Shown: positions 8,989-18,649 of the stretch, piece after piece
Layout: every line of letters begins with the position of its first letter
Numbering within the stretch: position 1 is the stretch's first letter
From: Candidatus Coatesbacteria bacterium
GTDB lineage: Bacteria; RBG-13-66-14; B26-G2; WVWN01; G020348885
Assembly: GCA_020348885.1 (NCBI GenBank)
Contig: CP070755.1
Location: forward strand, 747,734-766,382
Length of the DNA stretch: 18,649 bases
Direction: 5' to 3'
Program-made: the position numbers and the translations under genes
The notes under the pieces: generated by a model
What the model was told of the DNA's origin: nothing
Seen by the model: the letters and a program-made list of their open reading frames with translations, nothing else
Databases searched by the model: none

Positions 8989-9279
8989 CTATTTCATTTT
9001 GATTAACTTCTGCTTAATCTCGCACTTGTCCGTCCCCGACCGGGCGACTACTTTATAGAAATAGACGCCGTTGGCTATCTCATCGCCGTCGCGGTCGCGG
9101 CCGTCCCAGTACAATTCGTTGTAACCCGGTGCCAGGCCGCGGGTTTCCAACTTCCTGATAAGCTTGCCGGTGACGGTGTAAATTTTTACGACGGCGCTAT
9201 CCAAATGCGAACTGTTGACGAAGGTGAAGTAAGTCCCGGCGCCGGCGAACGGGTTCGGGCAATTGTAAACGTTCGAAAG
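8989..9279 (-). other. T9SS (Por secretion) type-A C-terminal sorting domain of the C25 peptidase
   Basis: The C-terminal ~96 aa read 'LSNVYNCPNPFAGAGTYFTFVNSSHLDSAVVKIYTVTGKLIRKLETRGLAPGYNELYWDGRDRDGDEIANGVYFYKVVARSGTDKCEIKQKLIKMK'. This matches the canonical (Y)PNPF … V.IYd..G..V..l…..G.h…WDG.…G…..GVYFY… pattern and the basic tail of TIGR04183-type C-terminal domains. Confidence 0.75.
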
Positions 9280-12200
9280 CGCTAGGGCGCCGGCGACCCG
9301 CACTTCCACCGAACCTATCGTTTCGTTTTTCAAGTTATCGTAAGCCCTTACGTAAATCGTGTGGTCTCCTTCGGTCAGCGCGATTTTCTTCCTGATCTCG
9401 CCGGACCTATAATCGCCAACGGCAGGTTTGAAGTACTTAGTGATGTCCGTACCGTCGTTCGAAGAATTTAACGTCGAATCCACCGAATAAGCAATCGGCC
9501 TGAAGTCCACGTCCACATCTTCCGTATAGGACGAAACCATGACACCCGACGGGTCGCTGATAGATATAATCATCTCCGGATTCCCCGTTACTGGGTCCCC
9601 GGACCTGAAGCCGTAGTCGTCGAAATATATATCGACAGAGGGGCCGGTCGTATCTTCGGAGTCGGCTTCGCCGTGAACGCTTATTTCGTAGTCTTCGGGC
9701 AGTACATAATCCGCGTAGTTACCGGGGTCGTACGCGTAAACGCGTATCAACGCGTCGTCTATATCGCTAACTCCGCCGTCGGGATCGTATCCCCAGCCCG
9801 CTGTTACGGGGACCGGAATCTCAACGTCGAACCGACCGGCGTTAATTTCGCCGACGGCCCGCGACAACAGCCTTTCACGATGAACGTCGCCGACTTGGGA
9901 ATCTTCGCCGGTAAAGTAATACGGCCTGTCGTATAAAGAAACCTCCACGATACCGTTCGCCACACCGGGCACCGAACCGGTAACGTCCAGTACCCCACCG
10001 CGTTGAACGGGGTTAGGGATGGCCGAAACGTCGGTAACATCGGGACGCGGTACGGCGATCCGCATCGACGGGTCGCCCATAAGCGTATAAATAACCCATA
10101 ACCGCGTGCTGTCCGAGTACATCTTACCGCCCCAGAAAGCTTCGCCCAGAGTTATGGGCTCGTCGGGTAACTCCTGGCCGGGGAACAAGTTCAAATAGAA
10201 ACCTTCAAGATAATCGGCCTGGGACCCTTCGGTCCCGAGTCGAGAAGACCCGGTCGTCGCGACGGCGCCGCGGCCGGCGGGGTGCATCAAATACTCGTTT
10301 ATACATTCGTTGCTCGTAAGGTCCGACATCAACGGTATATCGTCGAAGTAGCTGTTAGTACAAGACATTTCCTTGACTATCGGGTAGCGGTTATAGTTAA
10401 CAAGGTCGTCGACGTCGTAATGGTTCCTTACCGCATGGACGAACAGGTCTTCGTGGGCCCATATCTGGGGACCGCCGTGGCCCGAGTACTGGACCAATAA
10501 ACGGTCGAAATTCGCGACCAGGTCCGGCGTCATCTCGGCTCGCACAAGGTCCATACGGTCGAACCTGGGGTCATAATCGAACCCGGGATGTCCCCTGTTC
10601 ATCCATTCTATATACATCTTATCGATGCCCAAACCAGGCGGAACGTACGGCGGGATTAAATATTCTTCGTAGTCTCTCGTAAAATGGCCACCGCCGCCCT
10701 CCACCTTGTCGTTATTATCTGCTACTAAAAGCGTCCTCGTTCTCCACGTTCCGAAATCCATTGACCGGTCGTACGCGACTATCTTATCGACCATATTCGA
10801 GACCTGTTCCTCGAAACGAGCCGGCAAACGAGCTATAAACGCGTCCGCTTGCAGGTCGTCGCCTTCGACGCAGACGAAGAAGTTGTCGCTGGCGCTGTCG
10901 CCGTTCGGGATAGTATATAGAAGCATAGTCGGAAGCAAGTTCCCGCCGAAATCCCGGTATTCCTTATCGTAATATCCGTAATTATCCTTATAATCGTAGC
11001 TGGCGTCGCCTACGAGTATTACGAATTCGGGTCTCGTCGAAAGGTCGTCGTAACGCGCTTTTACGAAGTTCCGTATCGCGACGGGGTCGAAGACACCAGC
11101 GGAAAACTCGTCGTACACGTCCGTAACCTTATACACGCCCGTTGACAGTCCCTGGTTCCGGCGCAAGTTAGCAAGGGGCTGAACGTTGTCGAAGAACTTC
11201 CTGTTGGTAATTATTAACAAGTCCTCGGCCTTGGCGACACGTAACGACGACGGCTCGTCCCTATAAAGGTCCGCCGGTTCAAGCTTGGCTCCAGCGTCGC
11301 ACGCGACGAACCACGTACGCCCGTCCAGGACTTCGTCTTCGAATCGGACTGTATATGTACCTGCATCTTCGATAGTTTCGAAACCTGTAATAATCCGGCC
11401 GCCGGTAACGTCGTAAACGTACAAATCGGACCCGGAAAACCCGTCTATCTCGAACAACATATCGCCGTGGTGGTCGGGCGGATTGGAAAACCTCAAGTAG
11501 TCGTTATACGCTTTGTAGTACCTTGGGTATTCCAGCTCGAAGTGGCTGAAATATATCGGATGGTTACCGCCGATACCCTGTAGTTCCTCGACTATCAAAT
11601 TATTCCCGCCGTCATTGAATATGCCCGGGTCGTCAACGACGACTTCCTCTTCGATTTGAGTATCGATAGGCCACGAATCCCTTTCCCATAGCAAGTGCTC
11701 TTCGTCCTTCTTATTAGCGTATATCCTCGTATAATGCGGGGCATTCGACCCGGGCGCACTACGTAATAAAAACTTAAAAAGCGTGGTTATGTTCGCCGCA
11801 ACGTCGTCCAATCCCCGGATGCTAAAGCTCTCTCTGTGGTCGCTACCGGGCGCGACTGAAAACCAGAACCATGTCTCCTCGCCTTCGTCTATTTTTGAGT
11901 TACTGCCCTCGTATAACCTTTCCTCTTCGAAATACGAACGCCAGGGGTAAGCGTCGACCGTTTCTATGTTTGGGTTCGACGGCGTCCCGTCTTTCTGGGT
12001 ATAGCGTAAACCGGGTTCGTCGCCCACTACGAGCCAATAAACGTTGTAGTTGGAGTATTTATGTCTTTCCAAGACGAACTGGTTACCCGTGTCTTCGAAG
12101 AAATGGGTGTTGTGGGCGAAGAATTCAACGTAATCACCGTCGTCGAAACTCCCGTCTCCTTCGCCGGCTACTATCATCGGGAGCTCCTCGATGCCCATAA

Positions 12201-13230
12201 CCGGGTCATCCAAATTCGTCGGCAACATTTCGCCGGTCCCCGCGTACAAGCGAAGGTTCCGCGGGTCTATAGAAGTATCGAAGCCGAAATCCGTAAGATA
12301 CTCGTACGAAAGACGATAAAAACCCGTGTTTTCTATAATTACCTTGTATGCGTGCGGCCACCGACCGGCCCAGATTTCGCCGTTGTTTTGCGTTTCACTG
12401 CCGGTCCGCGGCCATAGCGAAGCGACCGAATAGTTTAATACGGTCCGCGAGAGAGCTTTTTCGAACGAGTCGTCCGCGTCGAAACCTTCTTCTATAATGC
12501 CCGCTCGTCTCCGCCCGCCAGAGTGAATAACCTTGACGTGAATTTTACTGTAAACCCGCAAAGTACGTTCGGCCGTCTCGTAAGAGTACGCGTACGCGCC
12601 AACGCGGATCAAGCGTAAACCTCGGACTATCGAACTTCCTACTATCTCGGCGGCTTTTATAGGGTAAGTTCCTATTCCGTATGACGAATCGTCGTAAACG
12701 AAATCTTCGACTATAGCTTCGTATCCGCTTCTCTTAACGACCTTCTCGCCCGGCCGCGGGCAAAGGGCAATGTCTCTAACCATATAATAATCAATGTCCT
12801 CTACAGCAACCGTAACGTCCGAACCGACGGGAACGGCGATCCAAACATTCCTCCTAAGGAGTTCCGGCGCACCCGTTTCGCCGGCAGCCGAACAACCTGC
12901 CACGTGATACCGGGAGAACGACCGCCCAGCGACCTCCACCTCCGAGACGGTCGAATCGCCGAACTCGACCTCGAATACGGTCGACGAATCAGTAGCCGAT
13001 ATAAGGGTAACCTCTGTCGTTTCCGGCGGCGTTTCTCTCACGGCACCCGGCCCTACCTTTTCGACCGCGCCGAGGTCGCGAGAGGTCAACCCGTCGGTCA
13101 CATCGGCGGCGTTAGTCGCGGTATCGTCGGTAACCGCCGACTTATCCTTTCTCGTCAAGTCGGCATCCAAGGCAAAAGGCGAAACGGTCGCTACAATCGC
13201 CACCGAAAGCAATATCATCGCACGGAACAT
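8989..13230 (-). CDS. Secreted C25-family (gingipain-like) cysteine peptidase with a C-terminal type-A T9SS sorting domain
   Basis: It has a signal peptide (MFRAMILLSVAIVATVSPFALDA) and a GGAGG RBS. The central region 'LLIITNRKFFDNVQPLANLRRNQG…YKVTDVYDEF…VAIRNFVKARYD…EFVILVGDASYD…SDNFFVCVEGDDLQAD…ARLPARFEEQVSNMVDKIVAYD' follows the peptidase C25 catalytic-domain pattern. A His-Cys dyad candidate is '…QYSGHGGPQIW…' then '…VKEMSCTNSYFDD…'. The last ~96 aa form the T9SS sorting domain listed separately. Confidence 0.7.
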   Translation of the reverse strand: MFRAMILLSVAIVATVSPFALDADLTRKDKSAVTDDTATNAADVTDGLTSRDLGAVEKVGPGAVRETPPETTEVTLISATDSSTVFEVEFGDSTVSEVEVAGRSFSRYHVAGCSAAGETGAPELLRRNVWIAVPVGSDVTVAVEDIDYYMVRDIALCPRPGEKVVKRSGYEAIVEDFVYDDSSYGIGTYPIKAAEIVGSSIVRGLRLIRVGAYAYSYETAERTLRVYSKIHVKVIHSGGRRRAGIIEEGFDADDSFEKALSRTVLNYSVASLWPRTGSETQNNGEIWAGRWPHAYKVIIENTGFYRLSYEYLTDFGFDTSIDPRNLRLYAGTGEMLPTNLDDPVMGIEELPMIVAGEGDGSFDDGDYVEFFAHNTHFFEDTGNQFVLERHKYSNYNVYWLVVGDEPGLRYTQKDGTPSNPNIETVDAYPWRSYFEEERLYEGSNSKIDEGEETWFWFSVAPGSDHRESFSIRGLDDVAANITTLFKFLLRSAPGSNAPHYTRIYANKKDEEHLLWERDSWPIDTQIEEEVVVDDPGIFNDGGNNLIVEELQGIGGNHPIYFSHFELEYPRYYKAYNDYLRFSNPPDHHGDMLFEIDGFSGSDLYVYDVTGGRIITGFETIEDAGTYTVRFEDEVLDGRTWFVACDAGAKLEPADLYRDEPSSLRVAKAEDLLIITNRKFFDNVQPLANLRRNQGLSTGVYKVTDVYDEFSAGVFDPVAIRNFVKARYDDLSTRPEFVILVGDASYDYKDNYGYYDKEYRDFGGNLLPTMLLYTIPNGDSASDNFFVCVEGDDLQADAFIARLPARFEEQVSNMVDKIVAYDRSMDFGTWRTRTLLVADNNDKVEGGGGHFTRDYEEYLIPPYVPPGLGIDKMYIEWMNRGHPGFDYDPRFDRMDLVRAEMTPDLVANFDRLLVQYSGHGGPQIWAHEDLFVHAVRNHYDVDDLVNYNRYPIVKEMSCTNSYFDDIPLMSDLTSNECINEYLMHPAGRGAVATTGSSRLGTEGSQADYLEGFYLNLFPGQELPDEPITLGEAFWGGKMYSDSTRLWVIYTLMGDPSMRIAVPRPDVTDVSAIPNPVQRGGVLDVTGSVPGVANGIVEVSLYDRPYYFTGEDSQVGDVHRERLLSRAVGEINAGRFDVEIPVPVTAGWGYDPDGGVSDIDDALIRVYAYDPGNYADYVLPEDYEISVHGEADSEDTTGPSVDIYFDDYGFRSGDPVTGNPEMIISISDPSGVMVSSYTEDVDVDFRPIAYSVDSTLNSSNDGTDITKYFKPAVGDYRSGEIRKKIALTEGDHTIYVRAYDNLKNETIGSVEVRVAGALALSNVYNCPNPFAGAGTYFTFVNSSHLDSAVVKIYTVTGKLIRKLETRGLAPGYNELYWDGRDRDGDEIANGVYFYKVVARSGTDKCEIKQKLIKMK

Positions 13231-13355
13231 CAGTATCTTCCCTCCGCTGAACTATCTCCCGCAGGACGCGGTATCGTGAAAGTAAAAATCGGACGAAATT
13301 ACCATACTTCGGGTAAGGGCGCAATACATACTTGACCGCCGTACTTACCGATTAT

Positions 13356-13372
13356 CGTTGACACAGTCAACG
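13356..13372. promoter_or_regulatory. Perfect 7-3-7 palindrome CGTTGAC-ACA-GTCAACG in the 325-bp region upstream of the C25 peptidase gene
   Basis: It was read directly and is ~125-140 bp upstream of the peptidase ATG. It also contains TTGACA/TTGACT -35-like hexamers on both strands. It is a candidate dimeric-regulator operator. Confidence 0.35.
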
Positions 13373-13555
13373 AACTCGTAATGCCGATTATTTAATTCCG
13401 GTTGAATGAACAGGGTATCGAAACGTTGGGTTCTGTTAGTGCTCCTGTTCGTCGGTAGGTCTCGGCCGAACGATTTCCGGGCCGGGTTGTGTAGACAGCC
13501 GCCAAAACAAAAAGGCCGGTAATACGTACTTACAGTAATCCCGTAACTGATAACG

Positions 13556-16280: not shown

Positions 16281-17075
16281 CTACTGCGGCAGCGGTTTAA
16301 TATCGTACTTGCTGAGGGACGATTCGAAAGTATAATGCGGACCGTTCGGGTATCCGATTTCGTCACCGGACATCTTGACGGTTCCCTTTTCCGGCTTGAA
16401 CCAGAAGTACTGCTCGAAATCGATTTTACTTTCGCCGCCCTGGGTTAAGTAGTAGGTAACGTATAAATTGCGCCGGATTTTGTACGCGTCGGTAAATATA
16501 CCGATTTCAGTGGTTACGTCTCCCTTCACAACCGTCGAGCAGTTAACCTCCACGTCCACCGTATCGTCGTGACCGTCGTTGTCTATATCGGCGGGCAACC
16601 CAATCGCCAGCGGCGAGATTCCCGTAACATTTACGACTTGCCAACTGGTACCGACCGAAAAGGGATATTCGGCCCAGAACCATACCGGATCGAAATAAAC
16701 CGAGTCGGTCATACCACGCGTCCCGTCGTAGTACTCGCGCCCGAACATCTTGTAAGTGTTCGTCTCGTTGTCCTGGACAAGGAAAACCTGATACGGCAGT
16801 TCGCCGTCTACGGCCCTTACGAAGTTCTGTACGGCCTCGTTGCCAATGACCGTCGAACCGTCGAAAGTATAGGTAACCGAGAACGGGTCGCCCAGGGGAA
16901 CGTTATTCTGATACCGCTGGTACGTATAAATCCAATAACTCTCGTCCGTATTGGGCAGGTAAGTCGGTATCTGTTCGTCAGGCGGCGTGGTTCCGTCTTC
17001 GGTGCATCCGACGGTAATAACCAAAAAAACGGCCGTTAAAAGCGCGGAGGTTAAAATGAAGCCGTTTTTTCTCAT
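16281..17075 (-). CDS. Putative lipoprotein of unknown function
   Basis: The signal peptide ends in a lipobox-like 'ITVG|C' (MRKNGFILTSALLTAVFLVITVGC). The mature part is rich in Tyr/Trp/Asp with 'DIDNDGHDDTVDVEV'. A strong RBS GGGAGAGGAG precedes the ATG. The start lies 45 nt downstream of the tRNA-Arg 3' end. No family was recognised. Confidence 0.5.
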   Translation of the reverse strand: MRKNGFILTSALLTAVFLVITVGCTEDGTTPPDEQIPTYLPNTDESYWIYTYQRYQNNVPLGDPFSVTYTFDGSTVIGNEAVQNFVRAVDGELPYQVFLVQDNETNTYKMFGREYYDGTRGMTDSVYFDPVWFWAEYPFSVGTSWQVVNVTGISPLAIGLPADIDNDGHDDTVDVEVNCSTVVKGDVTTEIGIFTDAYKIRRNLYVTYYLTQGGESKIDFEQYFWFKPEKGTVKMSGDEIGYPNGPHYTFESSLSKYDIKPLPQ

Positions 17076-17119
17076 TTCTCCTCTCCCAGCGCCGAGGTAA
17101 TGGTTTTTAGGCGAAATTA

Positions 17120-17193
17120 CGCGCCCGGAGGGATTCGAACCCCCAGCCTACGGATCCGTAGTCCGTTGCTCTATCCAATTGAGCCACGGGCGC
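17120..17193 (-). tRNA. tRNA-Arg (anticodon ACG)
   Basis: The - strand reads GCGCCCG-TG-GCTC-AATTGGATA-GAGC-A-ACGGA-CTACGGA-TCCGT-AGGCT-GGGGG-TTCGAAT-CCCTC-CGGGCGC-G. It folds as a perfect 7-bp acceptor stem with U8, G18G19 in the D-loop, a 5-bp anticodon stem, loop C-U-ACG-G-A, a T-loop TTCGAAT and a G·U pair in the T-stem. That G·U pair would be an A·C mismatch on the other strand. The discriminator is G and CCA is not encoded. Confidence 0.85.
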
Positions 17194-17208
17194 CCGTCGT
17201 TCGGCTAG

Positions 17209-17237
17209 AATATACCTTAACCGTTTTCGACTGTCAA
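17209..17237 (-). promoter_or_regulatory. Near-consensus sigma70-type promoter for tRNA-Arg (TTGACA-N17-TATATT)
   Basis: The - strand reads …aaCTTGACAgtcgaaaacggttaaggTATATTctagccgaacgacgg[tRNA]. The -35 is perfect, the spacer is 17 nt, the -10 matches 5 of 6, and the -10 lies 15 nt upstream of the mature tRNA 5' end. Confidence 0.55.
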
Positions 17238-17296
17238 GTTATATCGGGTGTTCGTTTTTCGGCGGGGCCGCCCGGCGGAATGGACTAACAAACCTG

Positions 17297-17325
17297 TTGA
17301 CATACGGCTCTTGGCGGTTTAATAT
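17297..17325 (+). promoter_or_regulatory. Near-consensus sigma70-type promoter on the + strand (TTGACA-N17-TAATAT), divergent from the tRNA promoter and facing a 250-bp ORF-free A+T-rich region
   Basis: The sequence is ctgTTGACAtacggctcttggcggttTAATATcc, with a perfect -35, a 17-nt spacer and a -10 matching 5 of 6. No ≥60-aa ORF lies downstream before the convergent flotillin gene. Confidence 0.45.
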
Positions 17326-17576
17326 CCTTACGCACCCGACATACGAAGGGGGGTTCGTAATATAGAATGAAGTATTCCTTGATCCACGTGGTACCTTCAT
17401 CGTATATCCTCATATATTTTTAATCCATCTATACAGAAGAGGATATATTATACGCCTTGGAGTGTATAATAATCCTCCTACCTTCCATTAGACCGCGCGG
17501 AAGCCGAACCCGATCCTGAATCCCACTTAGCATGCATAGGAAAACCGCTCGCTAACGAGCCCACGGCCTACCTACT

Positions 17577-18649
17577 TTATTCGCTTTTTTTATCCAGCTG
17601 CTCTTTCACCCCTTCAAGGAGTTCTACAAATGCAGCGGCATTAGGGTTATCCTTCATAGCGGATACTAGTGCGCCAGAGTTCAGGATTGCCTTCAGGATA
17701 CCCATAGGAAGTTGGGTTGCGAGATTTCCAAAGAAATCTCCAGCTTCTCCACTTCCGATTACGGTAACGTCGTTGATGGACTTAAGGGGCTCGTTCATCG
17801 CACCGACTACGGGAGCGAACGCCTTTACTATCTCCGGAGCTTGGTCCAGGATAAGCAGGAGCTTTCCTGTATCGTCTAGCTTGGCGAAGGCATCCGCCAA
17901 CTTATCCTTACCCGTGGCTTCAGCCTCCAGGGCTGCCTCGATACCTGCAGCTTCGGCAAGTTTATTGGCCTTAACGCCGTCGGCTTCGGCTATCTTTACC
18001 TCGCGCATCTTGGCAGCGTTACCCTTAGCTTCGGCTTCGGCTGTAACTTGTATCCTGGTAGCGTCACCCTCAGCGCGGGCTATAGTTGCGTTCTTATCCC
18101 CCTCGGCAACAGCCACCGCAGCTGTAGCTTTAGCCTCCGCGGGAGCTATCTCCTGATACTTGAGCTCCTCTTCGACCTTGTCTCTGGTAATCATGGCCAG
18201 CTCTTTACGCTCCGCTTCGACGGCTTTCTTGGCTTCCGCTTCCGCCAGTGGACCTGCCTGATTGGCCCTATTGGCCTCGGCTTCGGACAAAGCGCGGAAC
18301 TTGGCGGAGTTTACATCCAGTTCCTTCTGTGCCTCGGCGATGCCAATGCCGGCTTCTTTCTCCGCTTTCTCGGCAGCCAATCTCTGCGCAGCTTCTACCG
18401 TCCTAGCTTCAGCTTCGGCTACGGCACGGGCTTTCCTGGATTCAGATACTACCTGAGCAGTCCTCTTCATTTCCAGAGCGTCCAAGTAGCTCTCGCGTCC
18501 ATCTTCGAATTCTCTGTCGCCTACTTCCTGGATGGTGAATACATCTATTTCCAGACCTAGCTTTTCGAGGTCGTCGGCAGCGTACTTTACGACTCTCTCT
18601 GCGAAGGCTTTCCTATCCTCGATGAGGGCTTCTATCGTCATCTCGCCGA
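17577..18649 (-). CDS. Flotillin (SPFH/band-7 family, FloT/YqiK-like), C-terminal ~355 aa. The reading frame is open to the window edge, so the gene is 5'-truncated by the window.
   Basis: Ala/Glu/Lys-rich coiled-coil 'EA-repeat' region is followed by '…KLLLILDQAPEIVKAFAPVVGAMNEPLKSINDVTVIGSGEAG', which matches the conserved flotillin C-terminus (…LP.ia.a.a.pL..i..i.vi..G…). The ORF continues in-frame (…GE-M-TIEAL…) past position 18649, so the listed Met is internal. A hairpin GCTCG-CTAA-CGAGC plus TTTT on the - strand just after the stop (17546..17559) is a possible terminator. Confidence 0.75.
   Translation of the reverse strand, partial: GEMTIEALIEDRKAFAERVVKYAADDLEKLGLEIDVFTIQEVGDREFEDGRESYLDALEMKRTAQVVSESRKARAVAEAEARTVEAAQRLAAEKAEKEAGIGIAEAQKELDVNSAKFRALSEAEANRANQAGPLAEAEAKKAVEAERKELAMITRDKVEEELKYQEIAPAEAKATAAVAVAEGDKNATIARAEGDATRIQVTAEAEAKGNAAKMREVKIAEADGVKANKLAEAAGIEAALEAEATGKDKLADAFAKLDDTGKLLLILDQAPEIVKAFAPVVGAMNEPLKSINDVTVIGSGEAGDFFGNLATQLPMGILKAILNSGALVSAMKDNPNAAAFVELLEGVKEQLDKKSE

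What the first reader, a model, noticed from the sequence alone, without database searches (positions are those of the whole stretch)
17194..17576. A+T-rich 380-bp non-coding region beside tRNA-Arg with two divergent near-consensus promoters, inverted repeats and a possible sRNA or micro-ORF
The tRNA-Arg(ACG) promoter (TTGACA-N17-TATATT, - strand) and a second, equally strong promoter on the + strand (TTGACA-N17-TAATAT, 17297..17325) face away from each other, with a G+C-rich palindromic block (17255..17280) between them. The + strand promoter fires into about 250 bp with no annotated ORF, running antisense toward the 3' end of the convergent flotillin gene. This region contains an imperfect inverted repeat CGTATATCCTC…GAGGATATATTATACG (17391..17454) and the 8-bp palindrome CCACGTGG. 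It also has a TGTATAAT element and an 18-codon hydrophobic micro-ORF (ATG at 17367, MKYSLIHVVPSSYILIYF) preceded by GAAGGGGGG. The stretch is visibly more A+T-rich than the flanking genes. tRNA-proximal, promoter-dense A+T islands are classic sites for small regulatory RNAs, antisense regulation or remnants of integrated elements.
Basis: seen in the sequence. Interest (0 to 1): 0.55.

Follow-up and report, generated by a model that had tools for sequence, protein, structure and literature searches.

The report
Orphan promoter and candidate small RNA
Next to a tRNA gene in an uncultivated Coatesbacteria genome, a conserved promoter points into about 250 bases with no gene; they probably make a small non-coding RNA with one well-supported hairpin, but only two genomes carry it and the case is modest.

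Summary
The two divergent sigma-70-like promoters are the two best matches in the whole 18.6-kb window.

The window comes from a Candidatus Coatesbacteria MAG. The tRNA-Arg gene and its promoter are conserved in all close relatives found.

The + strand promoter keeps TAATAT and the 17-nt spacer in three lineages. In one of them (L006) it drives a protein gene about 50 nt downstream. The region beyond the tRNA promoter is a synteny breakpoint with four different arrangements.

Only the window and one metagenome contig (L001) share the 250-nt A+T-rich stretch.
- It has no conserved ORF; the 18-codon micro-ORF loses its stop in L001.
- It has no Rfam match, no repeat copies, and no phage or plasmid similarity.
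- Its 82% identity is no higher than the four-fold synonymous sites of the adjacent flotillin gene (78%). Conservation alone therefore shows nothing.

Two hairpins (17367-17400 and 17439-17477) do carry a signal. They hold nine one-sided changes and one compensatory change. All keep pairing on the + strand, and all nine fail on the - strand.

Best reading: a lineage-restricted + strand non-coding or antisense transcript, confidence about 0.45. The main rival is a rearrangement scar. Interest is low to moderate.

The parts
17120..17193 (-). tRNA-Arg(ACG) gene
   Evidence: ARAGORN and Rfam tRNA at 69.2 bits. It is 100% identical in L001 and L007-L010 and about 97-99% in L006, L015 and L020.
17209..17237 (-). 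tRNA-Arg promoter, TTGACA-17-TATATT
   Evidence: Matches 11/12, the best site in the window. The -35 and -10 hexamers with their 17-nt spacing are conserved in L001, L006, L007 and L015.
17238..17296 (.). Fast-evolving inter-promoter spacer, containing the G+C-rich imperfect palindrome at 17260-17278
   Evidence: In the whole-region alignment, 17241-17296 is 46% identical between window and L001. The longer -35-to-(-10) segment, aligned pairwise, is 66-73% identical among window, L001 and L006, with several indels. L007-L010 become unrelated from about 17245 onward.
17297..17325 (+). Divergent + strand promoter, TTGACA-17-TAATAT
   Evidence: Matches 10/12, second best in the window. TAATAT and the 17-nt spacer are identical in window, L001 (TTGGCC) and L006 (TTGACT). 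In L006 it precedes a GTG-initiated signal-peptide gene about 50 nt downstream.
17332..17535 (+). Predicted non-coding + strand transcript. The 5' end is inferred from the -10 box; the 3' end is undefined.
   Evidence: No open frame in the window and no coding-like substitution pattern. 82% identical to L001 with a single 1-nt indel. No Rfam match. No + strand intrinsic terminator.
17367..17400 (+). Hairpin P1
   Evidence: 9 pairs. Four one-sided changes keep pairing on the + strand and become non-pairs on the - strand. One further potential pair is broken in L001 (17396 T>G). Its energy alone is not significant (z -1.35).
17439..17477 (+). Hairpin P2: 16 pairs with loop CUUGGA
   Evidence: Folds at -17.1 kcal/mol in the window and -18.8 in L001 on the + strand, against -14.7 and -12.0 on the - strand. 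Six of its pairs carry substitutions and none is broken, including one compensatory U-A to C-G change. Simulated probability is about 0.006.
17478..17488 (+). Invariant CU-rich stretch, CTACCTTCCAT, just 3' of P2
   Evidence: Identical in window and L001. It is unpaired in the consensus fold, but its accessibility differs between the two single-sequence folds. Any seed role is speculative.
17367..17423 (+). 18-codon micro-ORF (MKYSLIHVVPSSYILIYF); judged not a gene
   Evidence: Stop codon lost and 6 of 18 residues changed in L001. No frame shows constraint.
17536..17576 (-). 3' stem-loop or terminator of the flotillin mRNA
   Evidence: Folds at -18 kcal/mol, z -3.7, on the - strand, with G-U-rich outer pairs that cannot form on the + strand (-10.7 kcal/mol, z -1.5). 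Terminator-like core at 17560..17547. The L001 substitution at 17559 keeps pairing only on the - strand.
17577..18649 (-). 3' part of the flotillin (SPFH/Band 7) gene, cut by the window end
   Evidence: Pfam Band_7. 100% identical to the NCBI partial Coatesbacteria protein P0001 and 96% to P0002.

Best explanation
The 380-bp spacer holds two real, back-to-back sigma-70-type promoters.

The - strand promoter transcribes tRNA-Arg(ACG). The + strand promoter is ancestral to at least three lineages of this Coatesbacteria clade. In the window and in L001 it has no protein gene downstream.

It most likely transcribes a lineage-restricted non-coding RNA of roughly 200-250 nt, starting near 17332. The 5' two-thirds of that RNA fold into two hairpins, P1 and the much stronger P2, followed by a C-rich, G-poor tail.

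No intrinsic terminator separates this RNA from the convergent flotillin gene. The transcript therefore either ends by Rho or by processing in the C-rich tail, or it runs antisense into the flotillin 3' end.

Its likely role is a small regulatory or antisense RNA.

Shown:
- the promoter consensus and its conservation
- the absence of coding potential
- + strand-specific maintenance of P1 and P2.

Inferred:
- that the promoter is active
- the positions of the transcript ends
- any regulatory function.
For: - The promoters are the two best matches in the window.
- TAATAT and the 17-nt spacing are identical in window, L001 and L006, although the surrounding spacer is only 66-73% identical with indels.
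- No ORF is conserved in any of the six frames.
- Over P1 and P2, 50 of 50 cells pair on the + strand, with 9 one-sided G-U-compatible changes and 1 compensatory change.
- The same helices read on the - strand give 41 of 50 cells, and all 9 one-sided changes become non-pairs.
- The overall transition spectrum is not biased in that direction: A<->G 14 against T<->C 21.
- For P2, six touched pairs with none broken has p of about 0.006 in simulation.
- P2 stability is kept or raised in L001 on the + strand and falls on the - strand.
- There is only one 1-nt indel in 251 nt.
Against: - Only two sequences carry the region.
- Its 81.7% identity is not significantly above the flotillin four-fold sites (77.6%, n=174). 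Purifying selection on the sequence as a whole is therefore unproven.
- Whole-molecule folds are not significantly conserved: p = 0.05 at best, and the single-sequence MFE structures differ outside P2.
- Folding z-scores for the whole region are only -1.7 and -1.9.
- There is no + strand intrinsic terminator, although the organism uses canonical ones elsewhere.
- In L006 the same promoter serves a protein gene. Its conservation could therefore be historical.
- No transcript data are available.
Confidence: 0.45

Rival explanations
1. Rearrangement scar. The tRNA-Arg upstream region is a synteny breakpoint. The + promoter is a leftover of a divergently transcribed protein gene, as it still is in L006. 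The 250 nt are simply the spacer that travelled with the flotillin block. On this reading the stretch evolves neutrally and has no function beyond the flotillin 3' stem-loop.
For: - Close relatives show four different arrangements to the right of the tRNA promoter: flotillin (window, L001), a secreted-protein gene (L006), TauE (L007-L010), and tRNA fragments with terminators (L015-L017).
- The right block is younger than the left. Four-fold site identity is 78% in flotillin against 55-63% in the left-hand genes, and flotillin has no codon bias (Nc 54).
- Spacer identity of 82% fits that neutral level.
- Runs of identity are no longer than chance would give at 18% divergence (inference).
- There is no terminator for a discrete RNA.
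Against: - The + strand-specific pattern in P1 and P2 (9 to 0, plus one compensatory change) is unexpected for neutral DNA.
- The -10 box and spacing are retained in both lineages that lack a downstream gene.
- There is only one small indel in 251 nt, against several in the 97-nt inter-promoter spacer.
Confidence: 0.3
2. The conserved stretch belongs to the - strand. On this reading it is a long structured 3' UTR of the flotillin mRNA, or a 3'-UTR-derived small RNA.
For: - The stretch is directly contiguous with the flotillin stop codon and is co-inherited with flotillin.
- The - strand folds somewhat better overall (-78 kcal/mol, z -1.9).
- The 17536-17576 stem-loop is clearly - strand specific.
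Against: - The stem-loop lies right after the stop codon and already looks like the mRNA's 3' end.
- P1 and P2 lose 9 pairs when read on the - strand.
- P2 drops from -14.7 to -12.0 kcal/mol in L001 on the - strand.
- The - strand MFE is not conserved (p = 0.39 and 0.70).
- No terminator exists at the far end near 17330.
Confidence: 0.1
3. Remnant of a mobile or integrated element, or a MITE, lodged beside the tRNA gene.
For: - The stretch is A+T-rich relative to its flanks.
- It sits next to a tRNA at a variable junction.
- Relatives L015-L017 carry a degenerate duplicate of the tRNA 5' half and a tRNA-like 3' fragment at the same site.
- Flotillin GC3 (0.55) is lower than that of its neighbours.
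Against: - The variable side is the 5' (promoter) side of the tRNA, not the usual 3' integration side.
- There is no partial tRNA repeat in the window or in L001.
- No integrase is present in the sequence available.
- No similar sequence was found elsewhere in the window or loci, in phage or plasmid records, or in viral, metagenome or genome pattern scans.
Confidence: 0.08
4. A small protein gene or a type I toxin: the 18-codon hydrophobic micro-ORF, or the longer ORFs that are open in L001.
For: - An ATG at 17367 lies 13 nt after a G-rich stretch.
- The peptide is hydrophobic.
- L001 has open frames of about 75 codons on both strands.
Against: - The micro-ORF's stop codon is lost in L001, and 6 of 18 residues change.
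- The window has at least 3 stops in every frame.
- pN/pS runs from 0.5 to 1.6 with no frame standing out.
- JGI called no gene there in L001.
Confidence: 0.03

Closest known systems
Independently transcribed intergenic small RNAs and cis-antisense RNAs at convergent gene ends (general bacterial class)
   Same: It has its own strong sigma-70-type promoter and no ORF. It carries a stable stem-loop maintained on the transcribed strand, and it is oriented towards the 3' end of a convergent gene.
   Different: It has no Rho-independent terminator and no Rfam family. Only two sequences are known. No target has been identified, and there is no expression evidence.
Divergent promoter pairs in tRNA upstream regions / orphan promoters left by gene-order rearrangement
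   Same: The -35 boxes sit back to back about 60 nt apart. In sister lineage L006 the same + promoter drives a protein gene. Gene order differs among close relatives exactly at this point.
   Different: In two lineages without a downstream gene, the promoter keeps its -10 box and spacing, and the downstream hairpin shows RNA-level maintenance.
Type I toxin-antitoxin loci with 18-19-residue hydrophobic peptides (Ibs/Sib type)
   Same: It has a short hydrophobic ORF in a promoter-rich intergenic region (resemblance from general knowledge).
   Different: The ORF is not conserved, since its stop codon is lost. No antisense RNA promoter was found, and there is no repeat organisation.
tRNA-linked integration sites of genomic islands
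   Same: Content varies next to a tRNA gene, and some relatives carry tRNA fragments there.
   Different: The variable side is upstream of the tRNA. There is no att-type repeat, no integrase and no mobile-element similarity in the window.

Membership tests
Any Rfam 15 RNA family (including 6S, SRP, tmRNA, RNase P, T-box, riboswitches and ribozymes) | Covariance-model score at or above the family's gathering threshold | tested here: not met
   Only the tRNA reaches its threshold. The best other hit in the spacer is a eukaryotic lncRNA model at 23 bits against a gathering score of 38, which is a chance match.
Classical trans-acting bacterial sRNA | Own promoter | tested here: met
   TTGACA-17-TAATAT matches 10/12 and is conserved in three lineages. 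Activity was not measured.
Classical trans-acting bacterial sRNA | Rho-independent terminator defining a discrete 3' end | tested here: not met
   There is no + strand stem with a U-tract between 17326 and the flotillin gene.
Classical trans-acting bacterial sRNA | Sequence or structure conserved above the neutral background across relatives | tested here: inconclusive
   Identity of 82% is about equal to the flotillin four-fold sites at 78%. The P1 and P2 substitutions are + strand compatible 9 to 0. Only 2 sequences are available.
Classical trans-acting bacterial sRNA | Detected transcript and identified target | not testable with these tools
   No transcriptome or whole genome is available. 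The complement of the invariant CU-rich stretch has no other site in the window or in L001.
cis-antisense RNA to the convergent gene | Promoter facing the gene with no terminator in between | tested here: met
   Actual overlap of the transcripts was not tested.
Type I toxin-antitoxin | Conserved short hydrophobic ORF | tested here: not met
   Stop codon lost and 6 of 18 residues changed in L001.
MITE / REP-type repeat element | Multiple copies in the genome with terminal inverted repeats | tested here: not met
   No second copy exists in the 18.6-kb window or in about 100 kb of related loci. Pattern scans of metagenome, genome and viral collections found no true copy. The whole genome of this MAG could not be searched.
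tRNA-targeting integrative element (att site) | Direct repeat of part of the tRNA bounding the element, plus an integrase | tested here: not met
   The window and L001 contain no partial tRNA copy. No integrase domain appears among the neighbouring genes scanned. The window ends 1 kb to the right, so the far boundary cannot be tested.
Protein-coding gene | Open frame shared by relatives with an excess of synonymous change | tested here: not met

The most novel reading that the evidence does not exclude
A previously undescribed structured non-coding RNA restricted to one Coatesbacteria clade. It would have arisen when a rearrangement at a tRNA-adjacent hot spot placed a protein-gene promoter in front of the spacer downstream of the flotillin operon. 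It would now act as an antisense or trans regulator, for example of flotillin expression.
Probability: 0.3. Interest if true: 0.4.

Novelty: new member of a known kind. Interest (0 to 1): 0.25.

Why it matters
If real, this would be one of the first candidate regulatory RNAs in Coatesbacteria, a candidate phylum with no cultured member; the paper search found no mention of non-coding RNA for it. It would also be a small, concrete example of a promoter being re-used for a non-coding transcript after a gene-order change. It does not bear on any long-standing open question. With only two sequences it remains a candidate.

Tried and rejected
- **Rfam.** An E-value scan of 16900-17900 and a gathering scan of the whole window and six loci found only tRNAs.
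- **Exact look-ups.** The window's own lipoprotein and P0001 are not on record.
- **Distant flotillin homologues.** At 35-41% identity they show no synteny downstream.
- **Metagenome pattern scan.** The P2 apex pattern gave one chance hit inside an unrelated coding region, L002.
- **Genome-collection scans.** The clade-specific tRNA-promoter 30-mer and a 23-mer from the spacer each gave 0 hits. This clade is therefore absent from the representative genomes.
- **Mobile-element searches.** Viral scans and phage and plasmid blastn found nothing.
- **Profile search.** nhmmer with a two-sequence profile against all loci found only L001.
- **Whole-molecule MFE conservation.** The tests were weak or negative: p = 0.05, 0.39, 0.28 and 0.70.
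- **Conservation as evidence of function.** I first read the 82% identity, against 43-46% in the neighbouring spacers, as purifying selection. I withdrew this after finding that flotillin four-fold sites are 78% identical without codon bias.
- **CU-rich seed idea.** No complementary site lies nearby, and accessibility is inconsistent between the two sequences.
- **CsrB-like, T-box-like and 6S-like readings.** I considered these from sequence motifs and dropped them. There is no GGA enrichment, no Rfam hit and no rod-like fold.

Full report
**Observation**

- tRNA-Arg(ACG) is at 17120-17193 on the - strand.
- TTGACA-17-TATATT lies at 17237..17209 on the - strand, and TTGACA-17-TAATAT at 17297..17325 on the + strand.
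- The 9-bp inverted repeat TATATCCTC/GAGGATATA is exact.
- CCACGTGG, TGTATAAT, the ATG at 17367 and its 18-codon ORF are all present.
- G+C dips to about 0.42.

A scan of the whole window shows these two promoter-like sites are its two best matches, at 11/12 and 10/12. The other seven sites all match 9/12. The G+C-rich 'palindrome' is only an imperfect overlapping repeat.

**Source and relatives**

The flotillin fragment is identical to a partial protein of a Candidatus Coatesbacteria MAG. It has only one close relative among the proteins searched: P0002, 96% identical, on JGI contig L001.

The lipoprotein gene on the other side of the tRNA gave a graded series of relatives from 90% down to 45% identity. 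Their contigs could be read.

The block tRNA-Arg, lipoprotein, two glycosyltransferases and a C25 peptidase is syntenic in all of them. The tRNA promoter is conserved down to L015.

**A synteny breakpoint**

To the right of the tRNA promoter, close relatives differ.
- The window and L001 have the + promoter, about 250 nt without a gene, and the convergent flotillin gene.
- L006 has the same + promoter: TTGACT, a 17-nt spacer and TAATAT, with the first 20-35 transcribed bases still alignable. There it is followed about 50 nt later by a GTG-initiated gene with a signal peptide.
- L007-L010 become unrelated about 8 nt beyond the tRNA -35 box. They carry a 350-nt spacer and a convergent TauE gene.
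- L015-L017 carry a degenerate copy of the tRNA 5' half, terminator hairpins and a tRNA-like 3' fragment.
- The distant complete genome behind L020 has a gene directly next to the tRNA.

The inter-promoter segment is 66-73% identical among window, L001 and L006 and contains indels. TAATAT and the 17-nt spacing are nevertheless identical in all three. The + promoter is therefore ancestral to these three lineages and very probably functional.

**Is the 250-nt stretch conserved?**

Window and L001 are 81.7% identical over 17326-17576, with one 1-nt indel. The tRNA-lipoprotein spacer is 43% identical and the inter-promoter segment 46%.

I first read this contrast as purifying selection. The proper baseline removes it.

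Four-fold degenerate sites of flotillin are 77.6% identical (n=174). The same sites in the genes left of the tRNA are 55-63% identical. Flotillin has no codon bias, with Nc 54.

L001 is also mosaic. Its left block is 92% identical to L007 but only 80% to the window, while its flotillin DNA is 93% identical to the window's.

The right-hand block therefore has a younger common history, through recombination or possibly assembly mosaicism. The spacer's identity is what neutral sites in that block show. Sequence conservation alone says nothing about function.

**Not coding**

Every frame of the window has at least three stops. pN/pS ranges from 0.5 to 1.6 with no frame standing out.

The micro-ORF has 6 non-synonymous and 4 synonymous differences, and its stop codon becomes a sense codon in L001. 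JGI called no gene there in L001.

**RNA structure and strand**

Whole-region folding is unremarkable, with z-scores of -1.7 and -1.9. Conservation of whole MFE structures is at best marginal, p = 0.05 for the + strand. The two single-sequence folds agree only on P2.

Two local helices are informative. Over P1 (17367-17400) and P2 (17439-17477), all 50 sequence-pair cells are standard pairs on the + strand. They include nine one-sided changes that pass through G-U and one compensatory U-A to C-G change.

The same two helices read on the - strand have 41 of 50 cells paired, and all nine one-sided changes become non-pairs.

The overall transition spectrum does not favour this outcome: A<->G 14 against T<->C 21. 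Random placement of the observed substitutions leaves P2 unbroken with six touched pairs in about 0.6% of simulations.

P2 folds at -17.1 kcal/mol in the window and -18.8 in L001 on the + strand. On the - strand the values are -14.7 and -12.0.

The stem-loop at 17536-17576 behaves the opposite way. It is strong and G-U-rich on the - strand (-18 kcal/mol, z -3.7) and weak on the + strand. Its substitution at 17559 is compatible with pairing only on the - strand. It is the 3' stem-loop or terminator of the flotillin mRNA.

The spacer therefore splits into two parts. About 40 nt belong to flotillin. About 200 nt carry the signature of a + strand RNA, the strand served by the conserved promoter.

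**Known families, repeats and mobile elements**

- No Rfam family other than tRNA matches.
- There is no second copy in the window or in about 100 kb of related loci.
- No true match turned up in the metagenome, genome or viral pattern scans.
- Nothing matches in phage or plasmid records.
- The window and L001 contain no partial tRNA repeat.
- The literature held here says nothing about RNAs of this phylum.

**Mechanism**

The best-supported reading is that the + promoter transcribes a non-coding RNA from about 17332. That RNA contains P1 and P2, followed by a C-rich, G-poor tail; G+C skew over 17400-17599 is -0.29.

The organism uses canonical terminators with U-tracts elsewhere, but none exists here on the + strand. 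The RNA is therefore probably not a classical discrete sRNA.

It may end by Rho or by processing in the C-rich tail, which is inference. Otherwise it continues antisense into the flotillin 3' end. A regulatory role, antisense or trans, is inferred and not shown.

The main rival is that this is a rearrangement scar: a promoter orphaned from the L006-type gene, plus the neutral spacer of the flotillin block. That reading explains everything except the strand-specific pattern in P1 and P2 and the retention of the -10 box and spacing. I put the two at about 0.45 and 0.30.

**Verdict**

The promoters and a + strand RNA hairpin stand. The micro-ORF, the palindromes and the MITE idea do not.
- The finding is a candidate lineage-restricted non-coding or antisense transcript at a tRNA-adjacent rearrangement hot spot, a new member of a familiar kind.
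- It rests on two sequences and no expression data. Interest is low to moderate.

Noticed in passing
L015 1-540 (also L016 and L017): About 170 nt upstream of the intact tRNA-Arg lies a degenerate copy of the tRNA 5' half, with 17 nt exact (GAGCAACGGACTACGGA, L015 351-367). Nearby are a bidirectional terminator hairpin (about 399-431) and, on the other strand, a tRNA-like T-arm/acceptor 3' fragment (about 148-181) followed by a terminator (about 117-141). ARAGORN and Rfam call nothing there. It looks like the trace of past recombination at this tRNA.
   Followed up: partly
L001 versus L007 and the window (L001 2663-7623; window 17321-18649): L001 is mosaic. Its lipoprotein/glycosyltransferase block is 92% identical to L007 and only 80% to the window. 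Its flotillin block is 93% identical to the window, and L007 has TauE there instead. This reflects either recombination at the tRNA or an assembly join.
   Followed up: partly
L011-L014, position 57 of the tRNA: Four independent Logan contigs all end at the same base inside tRNA-Arg. This is consistent with an assembly-graph branch at this variable junction.
   Followed up: no
window 17577-18641: Four-fold-site identity of flotillin to L001 is uneven. It is 90% in the part furthest from the spacer and 72% in the two-thirds nearest it. Flotillin GC3 (0.55) is lower than that of neighbouring genes (0.63-0.81).
   Followed up: no
window 16292-16304: The 13-mer GCGGTTTAATATC, which covers the start of the + promoter's -10 box, recurs exactly inside the 3' end of the lipoprotein gene. 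It is also present in L001. BLAST gives E = 0.21, so this is probably chance.
   Followed up: no
window 13231-13555: This 325-nt intergenic region, between the C25 peptidase gene and the glycosyltransferase gene, has long blocks identical to L001, for example CATACTTGACCGC..GTACTTACCGA. The rest of it is 66% identical or less. These blocks are probably promoter or 5' UTR elements.
   Followed up: no
window 8989-13230: A 1413-residue gingipain-like C25 peptidase has a C25 propeptide domain near the N-terminus and a C-terminal FlgD-Ig-like domain. It heads a conserved cluster with a UPF0164-like protein and several GT4 glycosyltransferases.
   Followed up: no
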